Source: Pseudobacteriovorax sp. (GTDB lineage: Bacteria > Bdellovibrionota_B > Oligoflexia > Oligoflexales > Oligoflexaceae). From it: a stretch of DNA of 10,910 nt. The translations under genes were made by a program, and so were the position numbers. The stretch is from NCBI GenBank assembly GCA_050293845.1, contig JBNKNM010000193.1, positions 1 to 10,910 of the forward strand, written 5' to 3'. Under the pieces are notes generated by a model that ran no database searches, was not told the origin of the DNA, and saw only the letters and a list, made by a program, of their open reading frames with translations. Shown here in pieces: positions 761-10,910 of this stretch. Within the stretch, counting starts at the first letter, position 1, and every line of letters starts with the position of its first letter.

Positions 761-3712
761 ATGAACGATATAGACGAAATTGCCTTTATAAAGCAGTCAC
801 TGGAGATTTTTAATGGTGCTGTTGAACTTCCTGAGAACGAAAAACAGGAATATATCCGTAAACGATGTGGAAATAATAAGGCCCTCCTAAAGAACTGTTT
901 ATCTCTACTGGCAAATGATTGCAGCGATAGCAGTTTTTTTGGTGATCTGTCCGATCCGGAGCTGGAAAGGATAAATGATCCCAAACTTGTGGGTGAAGTG
1001 GTAGGTACCTATCGGCTGAATAAAAAACTAGGTAGCGGTGGTATGGCTGATGTGTATGTAGCCACACGCACAGATGGTATCCATAATAATCCCGTCGCGC
1101 TAAAGCTGGTACGGGGCTGGGGTGATACGTCGGAACTGGTTGCACGTTTTAAACGGGAACGAAAAATCCTCTCTGGTTTAAAACACCCCAATATTGCCTA
1201 TTTTCTCGATGGCGGTGTATCGGAGCAGGGTCGACCCTATTACGCTATGGAGTATGTGGAAGGTGAGCATTTCGATAAGTACTGTAAACATAATAAACTG
1301 TCCCTAGAAGAGTGTTTAAAGCTATTTGTCAAGATCTGTGAGACCGTAGCGAGTGCCCATCAGCAACTGGTGATTCATCGGGATCTAAAACCTAGCAATA
1401 TACTGGTCACTAAAGAGGGGCAAGTGAAGCTGCTGGATTTTGGCATTGCTAAAATGATGGACGATGAGGAGCTAGAAACCAAGCTATCTGTTATGGGAAT
1501 TCCCATGACGCCACGCTATGGTAGTCCTGAGCAAGTAAAACGGGAAATACTGACTACAGCCAGCGATCAGTACACCCTGGGTGTCATCCTTTATGAACTT
1601 TTAACAGATCAATCTCCCTATGATCTTAAAAAGGGAGATTTACTCGAATCTATCAGCCATACGCAGCCGAAAAAACCAAGTCAAGCACTTTTGAAGGAAG
1701 GCAAAAAGAATCACATAAGTCACAAACTTTCCCAAGATCTAGACGTGATCGTCATGAAGGCTCTGCAAAAAGAGCCTGAACGCCGCTACGCATCGGTACA
1801 GCAGTTTGCCGATGATATCTATCGCTATCTTAGTAAACGTCCAGTAATCGCTCGCAAGGACACCCTCCTGTATTTATCAACGAGATTTATTCAAAGAAAC
1901 CGTACAATGGCTGCCCTTGTTTTTGTATCTCTCATCACCTTTTTAGGGCAGCAAATGCGCGTGATGAATGAAAGGGATATCGCAATAAAAAAGGGGGAGA
2001 TTGCAAATCAAGTACAGGATTTTATGATTACCCTTTTTGAAATTTCAGATCCAGGGGAAGCAAGAGGAAATAGCATCACTGCACGAGAGATTTTGGATCG
2101 CGGCGTGGAAAAGATTGAACAAGGTTTAAAGGAGCAGCCTGAAGAAAAAAGTGCCTTGCTTAATACAATGGGCATCGTTTATCGGGAATTAGGTTTATAT
2201 AACAAGTCGGCTCCATTATTGGAAAAGGCCTTGGAATTACGGCAGAAATATTTACCAGTAGGAAGTACTGAAGAAGCCGAGAGTTTGAATGAATTTGCTA
2301 AATTGCTAAGAGAAACAGGGCATTATGAAGAAGCTGAAGTGCAGCATCAAAAAGCGCTTACCATCCTTATTAGTATTCTTGGCGAGAATCATCTTAATCT
2401 GAGTGATATCTATAACAATCTAGGAAAGTTGTATTTTAGAAAAGGGGAGTTCAGTCGTGCCATTAAATATTTTGAAAAAACCCTAGCTATAAGAATAAAT
2501 GGGTTGGGAAAAAATCATTCAGATGTATCTAACGCTTTACACAATCTGGGAACTGTGTACCTCAGAACAGGAAAGTATGAACTTGCAACTGATTTTTTTA
2601 AAAAGGCTTTGGCTATAAAAATAGATGAGCTGGGAGAAAATCATCTGTATGTGGCCGATACCTATATCAATATGGGTATTTTGAATTTGGAGAAAGGAGA
2701 ATATAACCTTTCCATTAAATCTTTTGAAAAGTCCTTACCTATAAGAATAGATGCTCTGGGAGAAAATCACCCGGATGTGGCAGCGATTTATGAAAATCTG
2801 GGGCTTGTGTATGAAGAAAAAGGTGAATACGACCGCGCTATTGAATATTTTGAAAAGTCCTTGCTTATAAAAATTAATGTATTGGGGGAAAGTCATCCGA
2901 AAGTGGCCGATACTTATAACAATCTAGGACTTGTGTATCATGATAAAGGAGAGTATGAGATCGCAATTAAGTATTTTAATAAATCCTTACCTATAAGAAT
3001 AGATACTCTGGGAGAAAATCATCCGAAAGTGGGCGGGGCTTATCACAACCTAGGATCAATATATCAAGCGAAAGGAGAGTATGAGATCGCAGTTAAGTAT
3101 TATAATAAATCCTTACCTATTCAAATAAATGCACTGGGAGAAAATCATTCGGATGTGGCTATGATTTATGGGAATCTTGGCGTCATATATAATGACAAAG
3201 GAGAATACGACCGCGCGATTGAATATTTTGATAAGTCCTTGCTTATAAAAATAAAGATACTGGGAGGAAAACACCAAAGTGTGGCCCGCATTTATAACAC
3301 TATGGGGAGTTCCTATTCAGGAAAAGGGGAATATGACCGCGCGATTGAATATTATGAGAAGGCCTTGCATATAAAAATAAATGCGTTGGGAGAAAAACAT
3401 CTAAGTGTGGCCGGTAGTTATTCCAATCTGGGAATTGTATATGGAAAAAAAGGAGAGTATAACCAAGCAAACAAATATTTTAAAAAATCCATATCGATTC
3501 TTTCTGTCACTGTCGATGACGATCATCCACGTTATGCCGAAGTGTATGCTGGCCTAGGAGACGTGAGCAAGAAGTTATTACAGAATTCCCGCGCTCTAGA
3601 CTATTACCAAAAAGCGCTTGCCATAAGAATTGAAAAATTAGGAGCTGAGCATCCAGAAACAATTGAGGTAAAAACAAAGATAGCTAATCTAAAAAAGTCG
3701 ATGAAGTTATAG
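761..3712 (+). CDS. Ser/Thr protein kinase with C-terminal TPR array (ECF-sigma-associated type)
   Basis: 983 aa with intact kinase motifs LGSGGMADVY, VALK, ERKIL, HRDLKPSN, DFG, TPRYGSPEQ, SDQYTLG and PERRY. These are followed by a short hydrophobic stretch (MAALVFVSLITFLG), a 'DPGEARG..ITAREILDRG' linker typical of sigma-linked kinases, and about 12 TPR units of 42 aa. No strong RBS. Confidence 0.96.
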   Translation: MNDIDEIAFIKQSLEIFNGAVELPENEKQEYIRKRCGNNKALLKNCLSLLANDCSDSSFFGDLSDPELERINDPKLVGEVVGTYRLNKKLGSGGMADVYVATRTDGIHNNPVALKLVRGWGDTSELVARFKRERKILSGLKHPNIAYFLDGGVSEQGRPYYAMEYVEGEHFDKYCKHNKLSLEECLKLFVKICETVASAHQQLVIHRDLKPSNILVTKEGQVKLLDFGIAKMMDDEELETKLSVMGIPMTPRYGSPEQVKREILTTASDQYTLGVILYELLTDQSPYDLKKGDLLESISHTQPKKPSQALLKEGKKNHISHKLSQDLDVIVMKALQKEPERRYASVQQFADDIYRYLSKRPVIARKDTLLYLSTRFIQRNRTMAALVFVSLITFLGQQMRVMNERDIAIKKGEIANQVQDFMITLFEISDPGEARGNSITAREILDRGVEKIEQGLKEQPEEKSALLNTMGIVYRELGLYNKSAPLLEKALELRQKYLPVGSTEEAESLNEFAKLLRETGHYEEAEVQHQKALTILISILGENHLNLSDIYNNLGKLYFRKGEFSRAIKYFEKTLAIRINGLGKNHSDVSNALHNLGTVYLRTGKYELATDFFKKALAIKIDELGENHLYVADTYINMGILNLEKGEYNLSIKSFEKSLPIRIDALGENHPDVAAIYENLGLVYEEKGEYDRAIEYFEKSLLIKINVLGESHPKVADTYNNLGLVYHDKGEYEIAIKYFNKSLPIRIDTLGENHPKVGGAYHNLGSIYQAKGEYEIAVKYYNKSLPIQINALGENHSDVAMIYGNLGVIYNDKGEYDRAIEYFDKSLLIKIKILGGKHQSVARIYNTMGSSYSGKGEYDRAIEYYEKALHIKINALGEKHLSVAGSYSNLGIVYGKKGEYNQANKYFKKSISILSVTVDDDHPRYAEVYAGLGDVSKKLLQNSRALDYYQKALAIRIEKLGAEHPETIEVKTKIANLKKSMKL
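2270..3660 (+). repeat. 126-bp-period coding tandem repeat (42-aa kinesin-light-chain-like TPRs)
   Basis: Unit LGENHPxVAxxYxNLGxxYxxKGEYxxAIxYFxKSLxIxIxx. The E codon of 'GEY' recurs at 2699, 2825, 2951, 3077, 3203 and 3329, an exact 126-nt spacing. Boundaries are approximate. Confidence 0.92.
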
Positions 3713-3730
3713 TGCCTCTACTTTTGTCTA

Positions 3731-4021
3731 CTAGGAAAGATTCCTTCGTTGTTTTTGATCCTGGAAAATCCTCCAATGCCCCATCCTAATATAAAGATAA
3801 TATTTTTTGACTGCTTCATGTGTAAAGAACGTTGGATGTATTTTGATATTTAGGTTTTGACGAGGTAAACTCCTACAAATTTCTTCCCAATTTCGTGCTT
3901 TTGAAACTTCGTCTATAGATTTATCACTTTGACAATATTCTATTGCTAGAATTTCTACCAAGCTTTCATCGTCGATAAAGTAGTCCCGAGTATTGAACAA
4001 ATAGCTTTTGAAATCATTCAT
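3731..4021 (-). CDS. Hypothetical 96-aa protein translationally coupled to the ECF sigma; candidate anti-sigma, possibly truncated
   Basis: ATGA overlap with the sigma stop (4018-4021); ends in tandem TAG TAG. No recognisable motif or TM helix; the role is inferred from position only. Confidence 0.6.
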   Translation of the reverse strand: MNDFKSYLFNTRDYFIDDESLVEILAIEYCQSDKSIDEVSKARNWEEICRSLPRQNLNIKIHPTFFTHEAVKKYYLYIRMGHWRIFQDQKQRRNLS

Positions 4022-4611
4022 CGAGCATCCTCTCGAACTTGAGATATTTTATCGTGAATATGAAAACGAAATTTTTCACGTAGACGATATACCTTTGAAG
4101 TAACTGTACCTATAGGTAGATCTAGTTTATGAGAAATTTCTTTAAATGACAAACCTTCTTCATAAAACAATCTAAAGCACTCTCCACCATTAGATTTTGA
4201 TATATTCTCAATAATATTACTAAGCAGTTGCAGTTCTAGTTCTCGTTGAGGATTTGATTTCCATACATTTTCCATTGCTATTTTGGTATCACTATCAGAA
4301 TTGAATGTTTTTCTACACATTTCAATTCTATAATTATCGATAACTAGGTTTCTTGCTGTTACAGTCAAAAAAGATCTTATTTTTTTACTTTCTATTTTCG
4401 AGAGATTTTTATAAAGACGAAGAAAAATTTCTTGTGTAATGTCATCAGTTTCTTCTTTGTTCATATTTAGCTTTCGTAAATAAAACTGTATATATCCTAT
4501 ATGTTGATCATATATTTTCTTGAATTTTTCGTGGCTTAACCTCTTAGGCTCTTCAATTGATATAACGTGGCCATTCTTCAAGCTATTTTTTTCTTTAAGC
4601 AATATTCTCAT
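4018..4611 (-). CDS. ECF-subfamily RNA polymerase sigma-70 factor
   Basis: Region 2: ETDDITQEIFLRLY...FLTVTARNLVIDNYR. Region 4: FYEEGLSFKEISHKLDLPIGTVTSKVYRLR. RBS AAGGGAG upstream of the ATG. Confidence 0.93.
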   Translation of the reverse strand: MRILLKEKNSLKNGHVISIEEPKRLSHEKFKKIYDQHIGYIQFYLRKLNMNKEETDDITQEIFLRLYKNLSKIESKKIRSFLTVTARNLVIDNYRIEMCRKTFNSDSDTKIAMENVWKSNPQRELELQLLSNIIENISKSNGGECFRLFYEEGLSFKEISHKLDLPIGTVTSKVYRLREKFRFHIHDKISQVREDAR

Positions 4612-4641
4612 GATTTTTCTCCCTTGGTTTAAACCGACATG

Positions 4642-4776
4642 TCATTTCGTTGGGAAGCCCGTATTGTTATGTTTTAAATCTGGGAAGGCATAATATTGAT
4701 TCTTTTCATCATTTTCTATTCCCACTACTAAAACGTTTCTGAAAATCGCTAATTGCTGTTTGTTTGCACCATTCAT
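4642..4776 (-). CDS. Putative 44-aa small ORF upstream of, and in frame with, the ECF sigma
   Basis: AAGGGA followed by an A-run and ATG. Translates to MNGANKQQLAIFRNVLVVGIENDEKNQYYAFPDLKHNNTGFPTK*. Below the ORF-track cutoff; no homology recognised. Confidence 0.35.
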   Translation of the reverse strand: MNGANKQQLAIFRNVLVVGIENDEKNQYYAFPDLKHNNTGFPTK

Positions 4777-5056
4777 TTTTTCCCTTAATCACTTAGCTAC
4801 CAAAACCAGAGAGAAAAGTGTCATCGATGTAAAATTTTTTTGACAATGGTATAGATAGAGGATAGCTATGAACTATTGGCCTGACCTGATTCTCCACATG
4901 TAGACACCAAGCTGATCCTAACTGACAACAATTTATTGATGCAAAACTAAGGACAAAGCATATAAAGAAAGTTGTTCTACTGTAGAAAAAGTGTTCAAAG
5001 CCAGAGATGACTAGGTAATTTTATTGGGAATGGGATTTCATACAAAGGAGATTCCT

Positions 5057-5629
5057 ATGTCTTTGATTACAGAACATATTCGTGCTTGGAATATTGGTGA
5101 TGAAGCCTCGCTTGATAAACTGATCGTCATGACCTACCAGCGACTGCGCATATCGGCTAAACGAGCCCTAGGCGATGTCAATGGTGTTCATTCTCTGCAA
5201 GCAACAGAGCTAGTGAATGAGCTATATTGCCACTTTAAAAAATATAAAATGACAAACTGTACCGGCAGTGCTGAGTTTTTTGGCATAGCTGCATGGCGAC
5301 TGAGGGACATTCTCAAAAAAAAGCTGCGAAATAAATACGCCAGGAAAAGGGATTTTGGCGTTAAAGTGAGTGGATGCGATGTCGAAAACCTCAAGGCACC
5401 ACACACGGTACTGCAACAACTGGTACTTACCCAATCTCTAGAGACACTTAAGAAAGTGGATGCCCAAATGGCTCAAATCGCAGAATTAAGAACATTTTGG
5501 GAATTCACCGTACCAGAGATTTGTGACATCGTTAATATATCTACAAGTACTTATCACCGAAAGTGGAGACAGGCTAAGGCAATTCTTGTTCAACAGTTTA
5601 GTCATAACTCACTATCGTACCAGTCATGA
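5057..5629 (+). CDS. ECF-type sigma factor, TIGR02999/ECF43-like (kinase-associated)
   Basis: ITEHIRAWNIGDEASLDKLIVMTYQRLR...HSLQATELVNELY...FFGIAAWRLRDIL...ARKR...AQIAELRTFWEFTVPEICDIVNISTSTYHRKWRQAKAIL matches the family pattern (W..GD..ALD.L...Y..LR, HTLQPTALV.E.Y, FF..AA..MR.IL, W..A.A.L). Start moved from 5024 to ATG 5057 because of AAGGAG at 5045-5050; 190 aa. Confidence 0.9.
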   Translation: MSLITEHIRAWNIGDEASLDKLIVMTYQRLRISAKRALGDVNGVHSLQATELVNELYCHFKKYKMTNCTGSAEFFGIAAWRLRDILKKKLRNKYARKRDFGVKVSGCDVENLKAPHTVLQQLVLTQSLETLKKVDAQMAQIAELRTFWEFTVPEICDIVNISTSTYHRKWRQAKAILVQQFSHNSLSYQS

Positions 5630-5721
5630 ACGACATCGATGAAAATTCGAAAGTAACCTATGTGATCATAGAGTATCATTAAGGACATTCCCTAAGCCGA
5701 TATCAAAACGATAAAAAACTT
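5626..5721 (+). pseudogene. Collapsed remnant of a paralogous Ser/Thr kinase gene
   Basis: ATGA overlap with the sigma stop. Encodes MNDIDE, identical to the first 6 aa of the kinase at 761 with 3 synonymous differences. The same frame continues VTYVIIEYH*GHSLSRYQNDKKL, which aligns ungapped to the intact kinase's RPYYAMEYVEGEHFDKYCKHNKL (1232-1300). Confidence 0.7.
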
Positions 5722-5786
5722 GTGATCTGCCACACAAAAGTGAGAGCTACTACAAGCTTCAAAAATCAAAGGAGAACCCCAACAGT

Positions 5787-5999
5787 TGAAGTGGTCCCAT
5801 TTTCCAGGACACTCTGTATAATCATTTAGATTTTAAGGAGGTTATGAAATGGATAAGAAGAAGACTTGGAGCAGCTATCCAATAGAACTCAAGAAAAAAA
5901 AGCGGTTATAATGACGTAGCAAGAAGGGGTCTCCGTTAGTGATGTTGCTGATCAAATGGGCATCTCGCCTCAATATCTTTCCCAGTGGCGTTCTCAGCT
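5787..5999 (+). mobile_element. Truncated IS3-family element: left inverted repeat plus degraded orfA
   Basis: TGAAGTGGTCCCATTTTCCAGGACAC (5787-5812) has IS3-type terminal IR form. RBS AAGGAGG and ATG at 5849 give MDKKKTWSSYPIELKKK, then a frameshift in an A-run to AVIMT*QEGVSVSDVADQMGISPQYLSQWRSQL, an HTH_Tnp_1-like helix-turn-helix. No orfB or right IR seen. Confidence 0.82.
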
Positions 6000-6329
6000 G
6001 CTCCAAGACAGAGCTCCAAGCTTGGATGGAATTCCTAGAAATTTATTTTTAGTTGCGACCACTCGTTTTGAGTATTCTTCGATGAACTCTTCTGCTGGGA
6101 CAAGCTCGTGCTTTAGTACCTTGTACTCAAGTTTCATCTTTTTGGTTTGGATCTTTGCAAGTTTGGCGCGTTCTTGATCTAGTGATAATCCTCCTTGCCT
6201 CTTGTCCTCATACAAAGCACGCAAAGCTTGCTCGGAATCGTAGTATGATCTTGGGCCAACAATTTCAAAGGGCTTAACCCTTAGTAAGCGTTTTTTATGC
6301 TTCTTCCTGATTGTGAAAACAACTCGTGG
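5994..6329 (-). pseudogene. Phage terminase small subunit (lambda Nu1-like) fragment
   Basis: Open frame ...KKRLLRVKPFEIVGPRSYYDSEQALRALYEDKRQGGLSLDQERAKLAKIQTKKMKLEYKVLKHELVPAEEFIEEYSKRVVATKNKFLGIPSKL matches the Nu1-like 'ERARL...Q.....L......ELVP.........K..L.IP.KL' pattern. No start codon for the N-terminal part (in-frame TAG at 6330-6332), the C-terminus ends at the IS3 junction, and there is no terL. Confidence 0.75.
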
Positions 6330-6443
6330 CTATAACTATAGTATGTGTTTTTGGCCTTTGATAAATTTGTGAGAAATTCCTATCTTCAGTACCTTGAAGT
6401 ATCAGGTTTTCCAAATACTATTCGTCCATTACTGGGCTTATGT

Positions 6444-7154
6444 TTATGCTGCCATGTTAGTCTTGGTGTATTTCCATATTTCGTGATCAAGTAATCTTGG
6501 AGTTATTTCAGGGTAATCGCTTTGCAGCATTTTTGCTACTAATGTGATAGCTTCTGTGGCTTGATAGCTATCGAAAGTTGAGTTCGTACATTGGCTTAAG
6601 AACCTTAGCACCATACGATCAGGTTTGATTTGGCTGTTATCTCCTGCTAGCATCAAAAAATATGAGAACGAGATTCCAGAGCGTTGACCTGGGATAGATT
6701 TAATTTCTATTTCGATATCTTTCAATTTTTCGAAATCTAGATCTTGGAACTTATCAATATGATGATCTTTCATCACACTTGCAAATTTCAGAGTTGCCGT
6801 TGCCTTCAAAATCCCGTTTTTCGATGATGTTCGCTGTTGATTGTTAAATATATTTTTAGCGATCGAGATGTCATCATCATCGGGAAATAAGTCTAGAAAA
6901 TGTTTAATTCCCACTTGCGATTCTCTTGGAAGATGTAACGAACCATAGGGTCGAAAATTTTCGAGATCGAAATATTTACATACTGAGGTGACGGTGTTTT
7001 TAGTCGAGGTATAGTTGGCTCCAATCGAGAAGACAGAATCTACAATGCACAAAGGTAGGCTATGATAGAAAAATGATTCGCTAAGTTTTGCGTTTTTTAG
7101 GTTAAGGTGGGTCCGGCAAAACTCAGCTATAGTTTCTATATGATTTGAGTTCAA
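6444..7154 (-). CDS. HhH-GPD-fold DNA glycosylase-like protein (atypical)
   Basis: 236 aa. Motifs LPLCIVDSVFSIGANY, HhH-like IKSIPGQRSGISFSYFLMLAG, KPDRMVLRFL (Asp at the HhH-GPD catalytic position) and terminal TPRLLDHEIW. TTG start overlaps the upstream TGA, with RBS AAGGAG. Gene call is strong; function is moderately supported. Confidence 0.75.
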   Translation of the reverse strand: MNSNHIETIAEFCRTHLNLKNAKLSESFFYHSLPLCIVDSVFSIGANYTSTKNTVTSVCKYFDLENFRPYGSLHLPRESQVGIKHFLDLFPDDDDISIAKNIFNNQQRTSSKNGILKATATLKFASVMKDHHIDKFQDLDFEKLKDIEIEIKSIPGQRSGISFSYFLMLAGDNSQIKPDRMVLRFLSQCTNSTFDSYQATEAITLVAKMLQSDYPEITPRLLDHEIWKYTKTNMAA

Positions 7155-8449
7155 AGTCTTCTCCTTTTCTGATCAGTCTGAAGCTTCATAGAAGGAATAG
7201 GTTTTGGAGTCGCATCATCATGATACAAGTAAAAACCTTGGGGTTTTTCTTCTTCATATCCGTTCAAAGCAAATCTTTGTTTCTGATATCCCTCTCTTTG
7301 CTGAGTGGCTGAGGGTACTAAGAAATCTCGAAAACTATTGCTCGGATTATTACTATTATCATTACAAATATCGTATAGCTCAATAAAGCGAACGATTGCT
7401 TCCCATTTGGCATCACCATTAAAATGGACCCCGCCGTTGTATTCACTACCATAAAAGAAACAGCCATGTTTGCTTGTGTAGTCATGCAAACTGTCTTGGT
7501 ATCCATCTACTTTAAAGTGAAACCATGGGGTACCATTCGAAGAAGATCCCTTTTTCCTTCCATCAATTCTGAAATTACTTGGATTTTGACACCTCCATTT
7601 TTTTAGGACTAATACGGCTTCATCGATATTGAGAGCCTCGGATTTCCTATTTTTGATTCCATTTGATACCGACGGAATAGCCACATTTGATCGTTTCTCA
7701 GACTTATGCACTTTGGCTAAAGGGTTGACCTTAACAATAATATTCTTCGACTTTTCGATTATACTATCTGATACTTCTAGCTCAGCAAACTTAGTGTCCT
7801 CTGTTAGAAACCTAGAATCCAATTTTTTCTGTAATTTTCTAAACAGAATTGATTTAGCTAATTGTTGAATAAATCGGCATTCTGCTAAATCTGCTCTCTC
7901 AAACTCATTAATATTCTCTGGATTTTTTGTAATTTCTACCCGAGCAATTCGGTACGAGGGGAAGAGAAATAGATTCAGGGGAGACATTGTTCTAAGGTAA
8001 CGGGTCGTATGATTTTTGGCAGATGAATCAGCAGCGTCAACAATATGGGCCAACTTCAAGCCTAATTTTCGAAAATGGGCGTTCACTCCACAGAATTTGA
8101 AACTGGACTCAACTCCATCTTTATACCAGGATGCTGGTATCTGCCTTCGCTCCAATTGAGATAAGATCGTATCTGTAGGAATCTTGCCATCTATCCAAGA
8201 TTGATAAAGTGCGATTAATGGCTCGTTATCAACCGAAATAAACGACTTATCGGACTCTACTAGCGTCGATCCTCTGCGAGAGAACTTAGAATACTTTCTG
8301 ACGGGGAGTAGGTTGGGGGTTTCAGTCAGTTGATTTTCAATCCATTTTTGGGCCTTGTGAATTTCATTGATATGAGGCATCAGATTGAAGCAAATCGCCA
8401 TTAGCTCTTCAAGTGTGCATGTTAAGCTGTCATTTCTGAAGTTTGTCAT
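7151..8449 (-). CDS. Hypothetical 432-aa two-domain protein with an N-terminal HNH-like motif
   Basis: Long ORF with RBS AAGGA. GLKLAHIVDA...SPLNLFLFP resembles the 'AHI...N.L.L' core of beta-beta-alpha-metal nucleases. A Lys/Ser-rich linker precedes an unrecognised aromatic/Gly-rich C-terminal domain. Confidence 0.7.
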   Translation of the reverse strand: MTNFRNDSLTCTLEELMAICFNLMPHINEIHKAQKWIENQLTETPNLLPVRKYSKFSRRGSTLVESDKSFISVDNEPLIALYQSWIDGKIPTDTILSQLERRQIPASWYKDGVESSFKFCGVNAHFRKLGLKLAHIVDAADSSAKNHTTRYLRTMSPLNLFLFPSYRIARVEITKNPENINEFERADLAECRFIQQLAKSILFRKLQKKLDSRFLTEDTKFAELEVSDSIIEKSKNIIVKVNPLAKVHKSEKRSNVAIPSVSNGIKNRKSEALNIDEAVLVLKKWRCQNPSNFRIDGRKKGSSSNGTPWFHFKVDGYQDSLHDYTSKHGCFFYGSEYNGGVHFNGDAKWEAIVRFIELYDICNDNSNNPSNSFRDFLVPSATQQREGYQKQRFALNGYEEEKPQGFYLYHDDATPKPIPSMKLQTDQKRRRL

Positions 8450-8461
8450 GTTTTATCCTTT

Positions 8462-8689
8462 TTACTCTGAGTCACAGAGCGGGCGCTTCTTACCAGTGGA
8501 CCTCTCTTTACTGATCCCATACCCGTGGCAAATTGAACATTCTTTAGGATGGCTGTTACGCTCTAAATATTCATTAACCAGCGATTTTGAAACTTTCAAC
8601 CTCCTGGAGATTGTTTCTACAGATAGACCTTTGTTATGCAGTTCCAGCGCGTGATTGGCTTTTTCAATCGTTTCATCTTTGCTTGGCAT
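8462..8689 (-). CDS. Small HTH DNA-binding protein with a C-terminal CxxCxGxG motif
   Basis: ALELHNKGLSVETISRRLKVSKSLVNEYL is a clear HTH, followed by CSICHGYG. Starts 1 nt after the upstream stop with RBS AGGAGA. Confidence 0.8.
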   Translation of the reverse strand: MPSKDETIEKANHALELHNKGLSVETISRRLKVSKSLVNEYLERNSHPKECSICHGYGISKERSTGKKRPLCDSE

Positions 8690-8690
8690 C

Positions 8691-10694
8691 CTATTCTCCT
8701 ATGGCTCTATGGTATTGGATACCTTTGGTAATATTCATCCAATACTCCCAAATCATAACCATTGCCAAGGTATCCAACTCACAATACTTAAGCAGAGCCT
8801 GGATCACCAACTCCCTCTCAGTATCATTCATCTCGCTAAACTGCATTTTCGCATAAGCCGTCATAGCTGCCCCACCATCAGCAAGCTCATCGTTGCTCAT
8901 TAAACGATCTAACTTACTAACATCCACTCCATCGAAAATTGTAGGAAGCAGCTTGTACGGGTCCTTAACAGAACCATCGTCATCGAATTGAATCCAGGAA
9001 TAGGCTTTAAAATTATGACTCACCAAGGATTCGCTTCCATAGATTGGCTGACTATACTTATCTTGGAGAAATTTCGACTCATTGAGGATAGCAGGCAGAA
9101 CTTTTTTAATGCTGTTGGAGCCGTTAGTAAGAGGATGGAAGTAGTACTTTCTTACCACCTCACACATATCGATCATATTACGCTCACCAAGCCATTGCTC
9201 TTCAGATTTAGAACGAGACTTTGTGATGGTTTTTATCCACTCACACAACTCGTCTTTATCACTTTCATTCGATTTTTTAAGCTGATCATAGATCTGGCAA
9301 AGAACAGTATTTTCATGGGGGGCATAGCGGAAGATATTCCCGCCATCCTGATCAAGCTCTTTTTTCAAAGCCCTGATAAAATCAAAGTTAGGAAATTCAC
9401 CGACCTTGCGATTTATATATTCTCCCCCATGGGTGATCTCTCCCGTTTCGCTTACTTTGTGATGGGAAAACTGAAAAGCAATTTGCTCATAAGGAGTTAA
9501 CCCTTTATGAAAGGGTAGGGCGACCATGGTAGTTTCAAAGTCAATAAAATGAAGGGGGTACTTCCAAGATGTAAGCTCTGATCTGAGGGACTCCATCTGT
9601 ATAGAGGGTTTAGCAGATCTGCTACGAATCAACGCAACTTGCTCCCACTGCCTTTCGGTTCTGCTAAATTCCCCAAGCTCTTTAGCGCTGGGCTTCACAT
9701 CGTCTTCAGTAAGATCCCTTGCCAAATAAATACCCTGTTCAAGGAGCTTACCGGCCTTGAGAAAGTTCCAGATATCAAAGACAAAGGGGCCATCTTTTGC
9801 AGACGCATCCCTTTTGACATCTTTCCAGCATTCATGAAATCCGCTTTTTTTGTCCGCTGTCACCTCATCACAGCGAAATTCACAGCTTTTGCAACCGGTC
9901 GTAAAGGGTGTTTGCACTCTCTTATTTTCAGTAAGGATGTTGGAAAGAAATGCGATTTCTTCGGTGAAGGGTAGGGTTCCCTGATCCCTTTCAATGCGAT
10001 CCTCGATGATGAGTTCTACTTCATGGGCAACGTTAATCTCCGTTAATACCTTATTCCCTACAGAGTAGGCATCAAGCCCCGCAAGGGCAACAGCTGAGGT
10101 TCGGCCGTTTTCTTCCACTAGTTTAAACATCTGGTTCAGCCCATCAATAGATGCGGGAGCTGACTTATCAGCCAGCATCAGATAGGGAATGACCGTAAAT
10201 TTTGGAAAGGCTTGGCGCATAACAAAGGCTTGAAAAGCAACATCATAAATATATTTGTCCCAATCCTTTGAAATTTTATACTTACCCTTTTTGAGTATGG
10301 TCTTGTTCCAAAAAACATCGTCTTCATAAGGATCGATCGACTTGGCTTTGACCTCAATAAGGTCGATAGTCTGGCCCCGTTTACGGAGGACGTCCACCCT
10401 TATAAAGAGATTTTGATAGCAAATAGCCGCCTCGTAGATCGTACCGTTTTCCTTGCTGAGTTCTTTATTAGTTAGGGCGATGGCTTCATCATGATCTAGC
10501 GTGGCGATTTCAATGCCATTAGGATTATAGACCTTGGCTAATTCTCCAACCTGAAAACCACCTCTCGCCAACGCTAGAAGAAAAGGATCGTCCAAAGAAT
10601 TATCCAGATAGAGATCTTTGTTGTTGGCATAGTAGAGCTTTGTGGGGCAGGATCTGCCTATCTTGTATTTTGATTTTGTCAAGTAACGAGCCAT
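8691..10694 (-). CDS. DUF2779-domain protein: N-terminal Cas4/RecB-like PD-(D/E)xK nuclease plus C-terminal RNase H-fold DEDD-type domain
   Basis: N-terminal part: LTKSKY....CPTKLYY, G..VGELA, IYEA, RVDVL, LIEVKAKS, YDVAFQ, CKSCEFRC...ECW. C-terminal part: YPLHFIDFET, PYEQIAFQFSHH, HENTVL, IDM, SIKKVLPA, LLKYCELDTLAM. RBS AAGGA. Confidence 0.88.
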   Translation of the reverse strand: MARYLTKSKYKIGRSCPTKLYYANNKDLYLDNSLDDPFLLALARGGFQVGELAKVYNPNGIEIATLDHDEAIALTNKELSKENGTIYEAAICYQNLFIRVDVLRKRGQTIDLIEVKAKSIDPYEDDVFWNKTILKKGKYKISKDWDKYIYDVAFQAFVMRQAFPKFTVIPYLMLADKSAPASIDGLNQMFKLVEENGRTSAVALAGLDAYSVGNKVLTEINVAHEVELIIEDRIERDQGTLPFTEEIAFLSNILTENKRVQTPFTTGCKSCEFRCDEVTADKKSGFHECWKDVKRDASAKDGPFVFDIWNFLKAGKLLEQGIYLARDLTEDDVKPSAKELGEFSRTERQWEQVALIRSRSAKPSIQMESLRSELTSWKYPLHFIDFETTMVALPFHKGLTPYEQIAFQFSHHKVSETGEITHGGEYINRKVGEFPNFDFIRALKKELDQDGGNIFRYAPHENTVLCQIYDQLKKSNESDKDELCEWIKTITKSRSKSEEQWLGERNMIDMCEVVRKYYFHPLTNGSNSIKKVLPAILNESKFLQDKYSQPIYGSESLVSHNFKAYSWIQFDDDGSVKDPYKLLPTIFDGVDVSKLDRLMSNDELADGGAAMTAYAKMQFSEMNDTERELVIQALLKYCELDTLAMVMIWEYWMNITKGIQYHRAIGE

Positions 10695-10750
10695 GATTAT
10701 CCTTTTACTTGTAAGTTCATAACTCGGTCGCTAGCCCTAGAACTTGAGAT

Positions 10751-10822
10751 TGTGATTAGGTGAAATGTGCTAGCTATATAGGTGATGTGCTGTAATATGT
10801 GACCATGGTGACATGCGGGTGA
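10751..10822. promoter_or_regulatory. Candidate operator region upstream of the four-gene operon
   Basis: Imperfect direct repeat TAGGTGAAATGTGCT (10757-10771) / TAGGTGATGTGCT (10779-10791). An 18-bp near-palindrome ATGTGACCATGGTGACAT at 10797-10814 has one mismatched pair. Six (T/G)GTGA pentamers fall within about 72 bp. Confidence 0.35.
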
Positions 10823-10910
10823 GGGTGGGACAGAGTAACTTCTCAATATCGACGGAATGCCATAAATTATGGAACAGAACCGTTTGGGATTGATTTCGAC
10901 AAGAATTCAA

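What the first reader, a model, noticed from the sequence alone, without database searches (positions are those of the whole stretch)
6444..10694. Candidate undescribed nuclease + DNA-glycosylase operon (putative anti-phage system)
Seen: four co-oriented intact genes with spacings of +1, +12 and -4 nt, each with an RBS, in a region otherwise full of pseudogenes and next to a terminase/IS remnant. The products are a PD-(D/E)xK + DEDD dual-nuclease protein (DUF2779 type), an HTH/Cys protein, an HNH-like protein and an HhH glycosylase-fold protein. Known: DNA glycosylases can act in anti-phage defence by excising modified bases (e.g. Brig1, a UDG-fold enzyme), and nuclease-rich operons cluster in defence islands and prophage hotspots. 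Inference: the glycosylase marks modified or foreign DNA with abasic sites, the nucleases nick and degrade it, and the HTH protein regulates the operon. No methyltransferase is visible in the window, which fits modification-dependent targeting. I do not recognise the combination as a named system.
Basis: partly seen in the sequence, partly recalled or inferred. Interest (0 to 1): 0.82.

Follow-up and report, generated by a model that had tools for sequence, protein, structure and literature searches.

The report
Prophage cargo: nucleases plus orphan glycosylase
Four intact, tightly packed DNA-handling genes sit between a dead prophage's terminase stub and an insertion sequence, but their relatives elsewhere occur without one another, so this looks like a local pile-up of separate mobile, probably anti-phage, genes and not a new four-part system.

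Summary
The four minus-strand genes, their spacings (+1, +12, -4 nt) and their ribosome-binding sites are real.

- **A (667 aa)** is a DUF2779 dual nuclease. The Cas4-like D/ExK motif, four Cys and the DEDDy residues are invariant in 16 orthologues.
- **B (75 aa)** is a rare HTH plus H/C3 protein with only 2 homologues.
- **C (432 aa)** is not shown to be HNH. It has no Pfam family and no fold match, only weak HNH_2 leads.

Co-occurrence fails. None of 80 D loci has A, B or C nearby. None of 15 A loci has B, C or D. Neither of 2 C contexts has D.

The cluster lies in a variable cargo site upstream of terS of a decayed prophage family. Sister copies carry an OLD nuclease or a UDG-fold gene at that site.

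Verdict: a mosaic defence-type islet, not a conserved system.

The parts
8691..10694 (-). Gene A: DUF2779-family dual nuclease (N-terminal Cas4-like PD-(D/E)xK with four Cys; C-terminal DEDDy 3'-5' exonuclease-like domain)
   Evidence: Pfam PF11074 E 5.3e-22 at residues 382-528. NCBIfam UU173_fam weak, 31.6 bits against a cut-off of 225. Invariant in 16 orthologues: C16, D101, E114, K116, C268, C271, C289, D385, E387, Y637, D641. Domain architecture as described in PMC3985635 and PMC13621843. Single copy in the genome.
8462..8689 (-). Gene B: 75-aa helix-turn-helix protein with a conserved H-x3-C-x2-C...C tail
   Evidence: HTH_38 E 1.8e-4 and HTH_23 E 1.4e-3, both below their cut-offs. Only 2 homologues among 5.8 billion proteins. 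H47, C51, C54 and C72 invariant in 3 of 3 members. AGGAG lies 7 nt before the ATG.
7151..8449 (-). Gene C: 432-aa two-domain orphan. The N domain (about 1-250) and the C domain (about 265-425) also occur as separate proteins elsewhere.
6444..7154 (-). Gene D: HhH-GPD-superfamily glycosylase-fold protein of an uncharacterised family (phrog_29694; AR9 gp110 type)
5994..6296 (-). Remnant of a prophage small terminase gene (terS). It marks the lower edge of the cargo region.
   Evidence: phrog_57 E 7.1e-11 for ORF 5994-6224. 6008-6296 is 83-85% identical to copies on C206, C4, C322, C327, C187 and C215. The intact copy on C4 is 155 aa and is followed by a GpA-type large terminase, E 3.8e-88.
10834..10910 (.). 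End of a multi-copy IS66-family element, at which the contig breaks. It marks the upper edge of the cargo region.
   Evidence: 100% identical to the ends of C385, C267, C151, C122, C362 and C692 (98.7% on C466) and to C72:23756-23832. On C72 an ORF with DDE_Tnp_IS66 (E 6.4e-10) lies beside it. Contig word depth is 227 there against 8.8 over the genes.

Best explanation
The stretch 6297-10833 is the cargo ('moron') region of a decayed lambda-like prophage. It is bounded by the stub of the phage's terS gene and by an IS66 copy. It holds four intact genes that are probably co-transcribed here but are not a conserved system. Each is a separately travelling gene.

- **D** is a solo HhH-GPD-type DNA glycosylase of an unstudied family carried by phages, plasmids and chromosomes. 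It most likely flips out a non-standard base and cuts it off with Asp179, leaving abasic sites. There is no lysine in the hairpin, so it is probably monofunctional.
- **C** is a rare two-domain protein of unknown fold.
- **B** is a rare small DNA-binding protein, perhaps the local regulator.

Shown: gene structure, folds and motifs of A and D, lack of co-occurrence, and the hotspot setting. Inferred: enzymatic activities, co-transcription, and an anti-phage role for the islet as a set of independent single-gene effectors.
For: **Independence of the genes**
- 0 of 80 D loci have A, B or C.
- The largest shared neighbour family of D is seen in only 5 of 73 loci.
- 0 of 15 A-orthologue loci have B, C or D within about 6 kb, and none in the 1.5-kb flanks of 20 loci apart from one marginal B-like hit at E 0.0046.
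- The C homologue on L082 has no B-like ORF upstream and no D-like ORF downstream. The ORF after the C homologue on L083 is not D.
- C's two domains occur as separate proteins.

**Mobility of D**
- 7 of 50,697 phage records carry it, all of the AR9/PBS1 group. AR9_g110 is annotated N-glycosylase.
- 25 of 72,556 plasmid records carry it.
- Relatives at 37-48% identity span many phyla.

**Defence-type company of A**

**Hotspot**
- The site upstream of terS holds an OLD-family nuclease on C4 (PADLOC Old 2e-24), a UDG-superfamily gene on C187 (E 1.7e-25) and a Calx-beta protein on C215.

**Active-site conservation**.

**Precedent**: solo HhH glycosylases defend against phages with modified guanines (Getz et al., bioRxiv 10.1101/2025.10.29.685425, sections read).
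Against: - The spacing (+1, +12, -4 nt, each gene with an SD) is what a true operon looks like, so functional coupling in this organism cannot be excluded.
- Contexts of C's roughly 20 full-length relatives and of B's 2 relatives could not be fetched, apart from two short contigs. A conserved B-C or C-D pairing is therefore only weakly tested.
- D's chromosomal relatives sit mostly among housekeeping or unknown genes. Seven sit beside repair-type genes: MutT-like NUDIX x3, Xth-like, AlkZ-like, SRAP and an RNase H-like exonuclease. Only 8 neighbour proteins are of defence or mobile type. This favours repair at least as much as defence for the family.
- None of the four proteins matches a PADLOC model.
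- No expression data were found.
- The contig ends 216 nt upstream of A, so upstream partners could be missing.
Confidence: 0.6

Rival explanations
1. A, B, C and D are one integrated base-excision restriction system. D marks modified foreign DNA with abasic sites, C and A nick and degrade it, and B regulates the operon.
For: - Operon-like packing with SD sites.
- All catalytic-type residues of A and D are conserved.
- No methyltransferase in the window.
- A's orthologues often sit with modification-dependent restriction genes: Mrr directly downstream and co-oriented in 2 loci, McrBC-like in 3.
- There is a precedent for a glycosylase working with an operon partner: Brig3-BapA (bioRxiv 10.64898/2026.02.25.707755, abstract and passages).
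Against: - No co-occurrence anywhere: 0 of 80, 0 of 15 and 0 of 2.
- C is not shown to be a nuclease.
- B and C are far rarer than A and D.
- Known defence glycosylases act as single genes.
Confidence: 0.1
2. It is DNA-repair cargo, not defence. D is an accessory base-excision repair glycosylase for some damaged base, and A is a repair exonuclease. They were kept because they help the host, or formerly the phage, to tolerate DNA damage.
For: - D's closest folds are the repair enzymes MagIII, Mag1, EndoIII and Ogg.
- Seven neighbours of D homologues are repair-type and about 30 are metabolic, housekeeping or DUF genes.
- The homologue in phage AR9 lies among early genes near Ugi.
- The DUF2779 member of JCVI-syn3.0 is quasi-essential in a minimal cell without phages (PMC13621843, section 10).
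Against: - Patchy, horizontally spread distribution of both families.
- Presence on plasmids and phages.
- A's restriction-type neighbours.
- The hotspot position, with an OLD nuclease at the same site of a sister prophage.
Confidence: 0.15
3. Only a sub-module is real. B and C, perhaps with the overlapping D, form a lineage-restricted unit: a regulator plus a new effector with a divergent HNH-type N domain and a sensor C domain. A is an unrelated neighbour.
For: - B and C are both very rare, and the exact B and C sequences were each recorded on 2 contigs.
- C and D overlap by 4 nt.
- C's N domain recurs with other C-terminal domains, once with HEPN_Swt1.
Against: - The C homologue on L082 has no B-like ORF in the 289 nt upstream and no D-like ORF in the 460 nt downstream.
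- 0 of 80 D loci have C.
Confidence: 0.1

Closest known systems
Dag defence-associated glycosylases (Dag1-Dag17; Getz et al., bioRxiv 10.1101/2025.10.29.685425) and, by function, Brig1 (PMC11078745, search listing only) and Brig3
   Same: - Gene D is a small, stand-alone protein of the HhH glycosylase superfamily with no sequence-detectable link to repair families.
- It is spread horizontally and carried on mobile DNA.
- Here it sits in a prophage cargo site.
- Dag proteins are likewise solo HhH-fold enzymes found by structure only.
   Different: - Membership could not be tested: the Dag sequences are in supplements that I could not open.
- Dag1's essential W188, four residues after its catalytic D184, has no counterpart four residues after D179 in D.
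- Many D relatives sit in housekeeping or repair surroundings.
- Brig1 and Brig3 belong to the UDG superfamily, a different fold.
HhH-GPD repair glycosylases MagIII (1pu7), Mag1 (3s6i), endonuclease III (2abk, 1orn)
   Same: - HhH hairpin followed about 20 residues later by an invariant Asp at a helix start.
   Different: - 8-14% identity.
- No Pfam HhH-GPD hit at E <= 0.1 and no PDB sequence or profile hit to these families.
- No Fe-S cysteine cluster and no hairpin lysine.
- Substrate unknown.
PF11074/DUF2779 (NCBIfam UU173 family; MMSYN1_0389 of JCVI-syn3.0)
   Same: Gene A has the family's Cas4-like plus DEDD-type architecture and conserved catalytic residues.
   Different: - Unlike MMSYN1_0389, A keeps all four Fe-S-type cysteines.
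- No member has been characterised biochemically in the papers that a full-text search for 'DUF2779' returned (7 papers; passages of two were read).
END nucleases (nuclease fused to an inactive endonuclease III domain; PMC12191111, abstract read)
   Same: An HhH/EndoIII-type module and nucleases are brought together at a defence locus, with no methyltransferase.
   Different: - There the two are one polypeptide and the EndoIII domain is catalytically dead.
- Here D is a separate protein with its Asp intact.
- Its link to the nucleases is not conserved.
Phage P2 Old and other prophage-hotspot defence genes
   Same: A variable cargo site beside the packaging genes of a prophage. A sister copy in the same genome carries an OLD-family nuclease there.
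   Different: - None of A-D is related to Old.
- That hotspots of this kind are a general feature of P2-like phages is recalled knowledge, not from a call.

Membership tests
HhH-GPD glycosylase superfamily (gene D) | Two-domain all-helical fold shared by EndoIII, AlkA, MagIII and Ogg | tested here: met
   [not shown]
HhH-GPD glycosylase superfamily (gene D) | Helix-hairpin-helix with a Gly-containing hairpin, then a Gly/Pro-rich loop and a catalytic Asp about 20 residues later | tested here: met
   Invariant I154, G156, Q157, S159, G160, G171, K177, D179 and nearly invariant P155, P178 in 30 sequences. Helices 145-152 and 161-169 flank the hairpin, and D179 precedes helix 180-190. The equivalence to the catalytic Asp rests on position, not on a residue-level superposition.
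HhH-GPD glycosylase superfamily (gene D) | Match to a curated sequence model of the family (Pfam HhH-GPD, named from memory as PF00730) | tested here: not met
   No Pfam family at E <= 0.1 except a spurious GGDEF_GdpP hit at 0.055. No PDB glycosylase by phmmer or by profile.
Dag defence glycosylases (Dag1-17) | Sequence or structure clustering with a validated Dag protein, and protection against phages with 7-deazaguanine | not testable with these tools
Only the main text was read.
PF11074 / DUF2779 (gene A) | Pfam model above the gathering score | tested here: met
   78.9 bits against a cut-off of 23.3, profile positions 1-126 of 126.
PF11074 / DUF2779 (gene A) | Cas4-like D...ExK triad plus DEDD(h/y) acidic residues | tested here: met
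   D101, E114, K116, D385, E387, Y637 and D641 are invariant in 16 of 16 orthologues. The features are as defined in PMC13621843 section 10. Assignment of the second DEDD Asp (D450 or D479) is not resolved.
HNH / HNH_2 nucleases (gene C) | Match to the HNH_2 sequence model (PF13391) | tested here: not met
   No Pfam hit for C. The six-frame search of the whole genome with PF13391 gave no match at E <= 0.001, while 11 related genomes did match.
HNH / HNH_2 nucleases (gene C) | Profile-profile or fold similarity to the beta-beta-alpha-metal core | tested here: inconclusive
   - hhalign of the N domain (38 sequences) against 12 HNH_2 segments aligns the AHI motif, but with probability 0.17%.
- Protein atlas scores to HNH_2 clusters are 0.79 for the whole protein and 0.87 for residues 40-215, both under the 0.9 lead threshold.
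Any named anti-phage system | Match of the components to PADLOC models | tested here: not met
   0 of 4 proteins match at a meaningful level. The only hit is B to Cas7_IIIg at E 0.013. PADLOC-DB 2.0.0 dates from 2023 and predates the Dag, Brig3 and END reports.
   0 of 80 D loci. 0 of 15 A loci. 0 of 2 C contexts. C is absent from plasmid and phage records.

The most novel reading that the evidence does not exclude
In this lineage the four genes have recently been assembled into a working base-excision restriction module. The unstudied HhH glycosylase D removes a phage-specific base. The orphan protein C cuts at or senses the damaged site, with a fold matching nothing solved and perhaps a very divergent HNH core joined to a new reader domain. 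The DUF2779 double nuclease A then acts as a general 'finisher' that chews the broken DNA. A would play the same finishing role beside Mrr and McrBC-type enzymes in related genomes.
Probability: 0.12. Interest if true: 0.7.

Novelty: new member of a known kind. Interest (0 to 1): 0.35.

Why it matters
**As a claimed new four-gene defence system the finding does not hold.** That saves effort on a cassette that exists only once.

**Three pieces remain useful.**
- Gene D defines a widespread, unstudied HhH glycosylase family: 409 relatives by word search and 261 in species genomes. It is carried by uracil-DNA phages, plasmids and many phyla. Single-gene defence glycosylases have just been discovered, so this family is a ready candidate for testing, and its substrate is unknown.
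- Gene C belongs to a modular family of about 190 clusters with no Pfam family and no structural match. It is a candidate new fold.
- This genome holds a family of decaying prophages whose terS-proximal site collects different DNA-attacking genes, which makes it a small natural catalogue of candidate defence cargo.

Tried and rejected
- **PADLOC, NCBIfam and PDB sequence searches** gave nothing usable for B, C or D. The PDB profile hit of D to ribonucleotide reductase (E 0.14) was dismissed as chance.
- **Rfam**: no RNA family in the window at gathering scores.
- **Promoter and terminator scan**: counts were no higher than in shuffles, 14 against 12.4 and 4 against 4.3, so no operon boundaries could be drawn from it.
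- **Contexts of C homologues**: The viral scan found none, as did plasmids and phages. The cluster look-up gave no usable records.
- **A small conserved partner upstream of A orthologues** (91-101-aa ORFs in four loci): they are not homologous to each other.
- **IS3-like remnant at 5956-6177**: no Pfam support.
- **Expression**: no RNA holder is listed among the 4 runs that hold the stretch, all from one study. The contigs laid cover all four genes, but X1 may be the source sample. In X3 and X4 only parts are covered, at low depth. I draw nothing from that.
- **Complex prediction** was not used. Neighbourhood alone did not justify a binding claim.

Full report
**Observation.** The window is a whole 10,910-bp contig (C193) of a 6.68-Mb, 741-contig genome. 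Four ORFs lie head to tail on the minus strand:
- A, 10694..8691, 667 aa
- B, 8689..8462, 75 aa
- C, 8449..7151, 432 aa
- D, 7154..6444, 236 aa, TTG start

The gaps are +1, +12 and -4 nt. Each start is preceded by AAGGA or AGGAG at 6-8 nt. The C stop and D start share TTGA. All four genes are single copy in the genome. The simple promoter and terminator scan was no richer than shuffled sequence, so co-transcription is inferred from spacing only.

**Gene A.** Pfam gives DUF2779, 78.9 bits against a cut-off of 23.3, over residues 382-528. NCBIfam gives a weak UU173-family match. In an alignment with 15 orthologues of the same phylum, 121 positions are invariant. They include:
- C16, C268, C271 and C289
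- D101 and E114-V-K116
- D385-F-E387
- Y637-x3-D641

This matches the published description of the family as a Cas4-like PD-(D/E)xK domain joined to a DEDD(h/y) exonuclease domain (PMC3985635, passages; PMC13621843, section 10).

**Gene B.** Only sub-threshold HTH matches were found: HTH_38 at E 1.8e-4, and an IS21-type HTH in NCBIfam at E 8e-4. Just two homologues turned up among 5.8 billion proteins. In the three sequences H47, C51, C54 and C72 are invariant. In the phylum the only other hits are weak matches to the HTH of 530-680-aa ORFs.

**Gene D.** No Pfam, NCBIfam or PADLOC family matches, but there is a full-length match to PHROG 29694, of unknown function (E 8.3e-55). The AlphaFold model is confident: pLDDT 95.7, pTM 0.91.
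- All leading Foldseek PDB hits are HhH glycosylases.
- The 30-sequence alignment has an invariant hairpin (I154, G156, Q157, S159, G160) and an invariant D179 just before helix 180-190. K117, D223 and W227 are also invariant.
- No lysine lies in the hairpin and there is no C-terminal Cys cluster. I infer a monofunctional, Fe-S-free glycosylase.

The fold alone does not prove a DNA substrate.

**Gene C.** No family was found in any library and there is no PDB sequence hit. The model has pLDDT 82.3 and pTM 0.58. It matches nothing:
- Foldseek best E 0.54

A profile search of 1.84 billion representatives found 192 proteins. In these the N domain (about 1-250) and the C domain (about 265-425) often occur apart. 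Of 91 of them scanned, one carries HEPN_Swt1 behind the N domain and none carries any other convincing Pfam family. Across 38 diverse members only D74 and N159 are invariant. R51, N75, E76, H135, R150 and R153 are nearly so.

The 'HNH-like' reading probably came from the motif LKLAHI...N-x-FLFPS. The tests gave this:
- The HNH_2 model finds nothing in this genome.
- hhalign aligns the AHI motif to the HNH His but at 0.17% probability.
- The protein atlas points to HNH_2 clusters at 0.79 and 0.87, below the lead threshold of 0.9.

The assignment is unproven and remains a lead.

**Do the genes travel together?**
- *D.* The species-genome scan found 261 relatives, and the best 80 loci were kept. 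None encodes an A, B or C homologue (phmmer E <= 1e-3). Among 73 loci analysed (7 dropped), the commonest neighbour family occurs in only 5.
- *A.* 27 of 131 genomes of the phylum have a match, own genome included, about 16 of them full length at 44-53% identity. None of the 1.5-kb flanks of 20 loci holds C or D, with one marginal B-like hit at E 0.0046. None of 15 loci extended to about 6 kb on each side holds B, C or D.
- *C.* 5 other genomes of 131 match. Four match the C domain alone, as a roughly 165-190-aa ORF; in G027, the one locus read, it lies beside a YchJ-like gene. One matches the N domain alone, next to a WYL/WCX regulator.
- *C in metagenomes.* Two contigs were retrieved. On L082 a full-length homologue has no B-like ORF upstream and no D-like ORF downstream. 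On L083 the following 217-aa ORF is not D.
- C is absent from the plasmid and phage collections.

The caveat is that most C and B contexts could not be seen.

**Company kept by A and D elsewhere.**
- *A.* I scanned 62 of the 71 neighbour proteins of at least 90 aa. In 8 of 15 loci the flanking ORFs include restriction-, defence- or mobile-type genes:
  - McrBC/AAA_5 (L128, L129, L142)
  - N6_N4 methylases (L128, L129)
  - Mrr directly downstream and co-oriented (L129, L140)
  - ResIII and resolvase (L130, L138)
  - EH_Signature (L139)
  - an MTES_1575 helicase-nuclease and T5orf172 (L140)

  No glycosylase family was among them.
- *D.* I scanned 98 of 104 immediate neighbours of at least 80 aa. 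Of these, 53 have no family at E <= 1e-6. Of the 45 with a family:
  - 8 are defence or mobile type (GmrSD_N, HsdM, DUF559, Bro-N, RES, Schlafen-AlbA_2, group II intron RT, IS110)
  - 7 are repair type (MutT-like NUDIX x3, Exo_endo_phos, AlkZ-like, SRAP, RNase_H_2)
  - 30 are metabolic, housekeeping or DUF genes
- D relatives are also in 7 phage records, all of the uracil-DNA AR9/PBS1 group. AR9_g110 is annotated 'N-glycosylase, endonuclease III/AlkA family' and lies among early genes near Ugi. They are also on 25 plasmids of Bacillus, Rhodococcus and Mycobacterium, among others. I found no functional study of AR9 gp110 in the two papers whose passages I read.

**Setting in this genome.**
- Window 6008-6296 is one of at least seven copies, at 83-85% identity, of a prophage terS region.
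- The intact copy on C4 has a 155-aa TerS and a GpA-type TerL. The window keeps only a stub.
- The contig's last 77 bases are identical to the ends of six other contigs (98.7% on a seventh) and to an internal site of C72. There they adjoin an ORF with DDE_Tnp_IS66, E 6.4e-10. Contig word depth is 227 at that end against 8.8 over the genes.
- The four genes therefore lie between a prophage stub and an IS66 copy.
- In sister copies, the place just upstream of terS holds other cargo:
  - an OLD-family nuclease on C4 (PADLOC Old 2e-24)
  - a UDG-superfamily gene plus two unknowns on C187 (PF03167, E 1.7e-25)
  - a Calx-beta protein on C215
- In run X4, a contig with 6 differences over D's 3' end leaves the window's sequence at 6292, the edge of the terS homology.

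This supports a variable cargo site, and so a defence-type role for the islet, without linking the four genes to each other.

**Comparison with what is known.**
- Solo HhH-fold glycosylases (Dag1-17) protect against phages with 7-deazaguanines and are found on mobile DNA (bioRxiv 10.1101/2025.10.29.685425, sections 5, 7 and 8). D resembles them in kind. Membership is untestable here because the sequences are in closed supplements.
- Brig1 (search listing only) and Brig3 (passages read) are UDG-fold. Brig3 works with an operon partner, BapA.
- END nucleases fuse a nuclease to an inactive EndoIII domain (abstract).
- DUF2779 is uncharacterised biochemically in the papers found.
- Earlier notes of this scan are unchecked leads. 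They describe DUF2779 as an exchangeable add-on beside many DNA-cutting defence operons, which agrees.

**Verdict.** The interpretation as one new four-part system is not supported.
- Most likely (about 0.6): a mosaic of independently mobile genes in a prophage cargo site, each acting on its own, with a probable but unproven anti-phage role.
- Integrated system: about 0.1.
- Repair cargo: about 0.15.
- B-C(-D) sub-module: about 0.1.

What is new is modest. D is an unstudied member family of a known kind. C is an orphan family without a fold match.

Noticed in passing
G000 contigs C4:7650-12162, C187:2632-7500, C215:5679-9204, C206, C322, C327; window 6008-6296: The genome carries at least seven copies or remnants of a lambda-like packaging module (TerS plus GpA-type TerL). 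The site just upstream of terS carries different cargo in each copy: an OLD-family nuclease (C4), a UDG-superfamily gene followed by overlapping 263-aa and 341-aa unknowns (C187), a 919-aa Calx-beta protein (C215), and genes D-C-B-A (window).
   Followed up: partly
window 10834-10910; G000 C72:23756-24578: The contig breaks in the end of an IS66-family element. By contig word depth (227 against 8.8) the element is present in roughly 25 copies, and it probably explains much of the assembly's fragmentation into 741 contigs.
   Followed up: partly
window 5785-6003: A further repeated stretch matches several sites per genome at about 67-74% identity in related genomes of the family (G059, G068, G069, G055, G064). 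A 36-nt piece matches C354 at 94%. This may be a small mobile element that truncated the prophage.
   Followed up: no
L110 (G027:C31) 6369-6860; also G028, G033, G034: The C-terminal domain of gene C exists as a stand-alone ORF of about 165-190 aa in four genomes of one genus. In G027, the only locus read, it slightly overlaps a YchJ-like SEC-C protein gene and lies near a MazEF-like pair and a DEAD-box helicase.
   Followed up: partly
P0225 (560 aa); L114 (G038:C66) 1358-4252: The N domain of gene C recurs with other C-terminal parts: once fused to a Swt1-like HEPN domain, and once in a 474-aa protein lying divergently next to a WYL/WCX regulator. Both are typical of conflict systems.
   Followed up: partly
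L033, L036, L040 (Clostridia-type loci), position -1 of the D homologue: In three loci a MutT-like NUDIX_4 gene (127-128 aa) lies directly upstream of the D homologue on the same strand. This hints at a repair role, perhaps on oxidised purines, for part of the family.
   Followed up: no
L129 (G077:C7) 3568-6530; L140 (G088:C5) 5348-8296: In two genomes the DUF2779 orthologue is followed directly, on the same strand, by homologous Mrr-type restriction endonuclease genes.
   Followed up: partly
L083 351-1004: Downstream of a gene C homologue on a metagenome contig lies a 217-aa ORF with no Pfam family. By eye, its middle resembles the C-terminal domain of gene C, so it may be a paralogous domain.
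   Followed up: no
window 761-3712; G000 C241:3116-4527: The 983-aa Ser/Thr kinase with twelve TPR_12 repeats has a paralogous stretch, 68% identical in DNA, on another contig. Two sigma factors, one ECF-type (5024-5629, +) and one with sigma-70 regions 2 and 4 (4018-4611, -), lie between it and the prophage stub.
   Followed up: no
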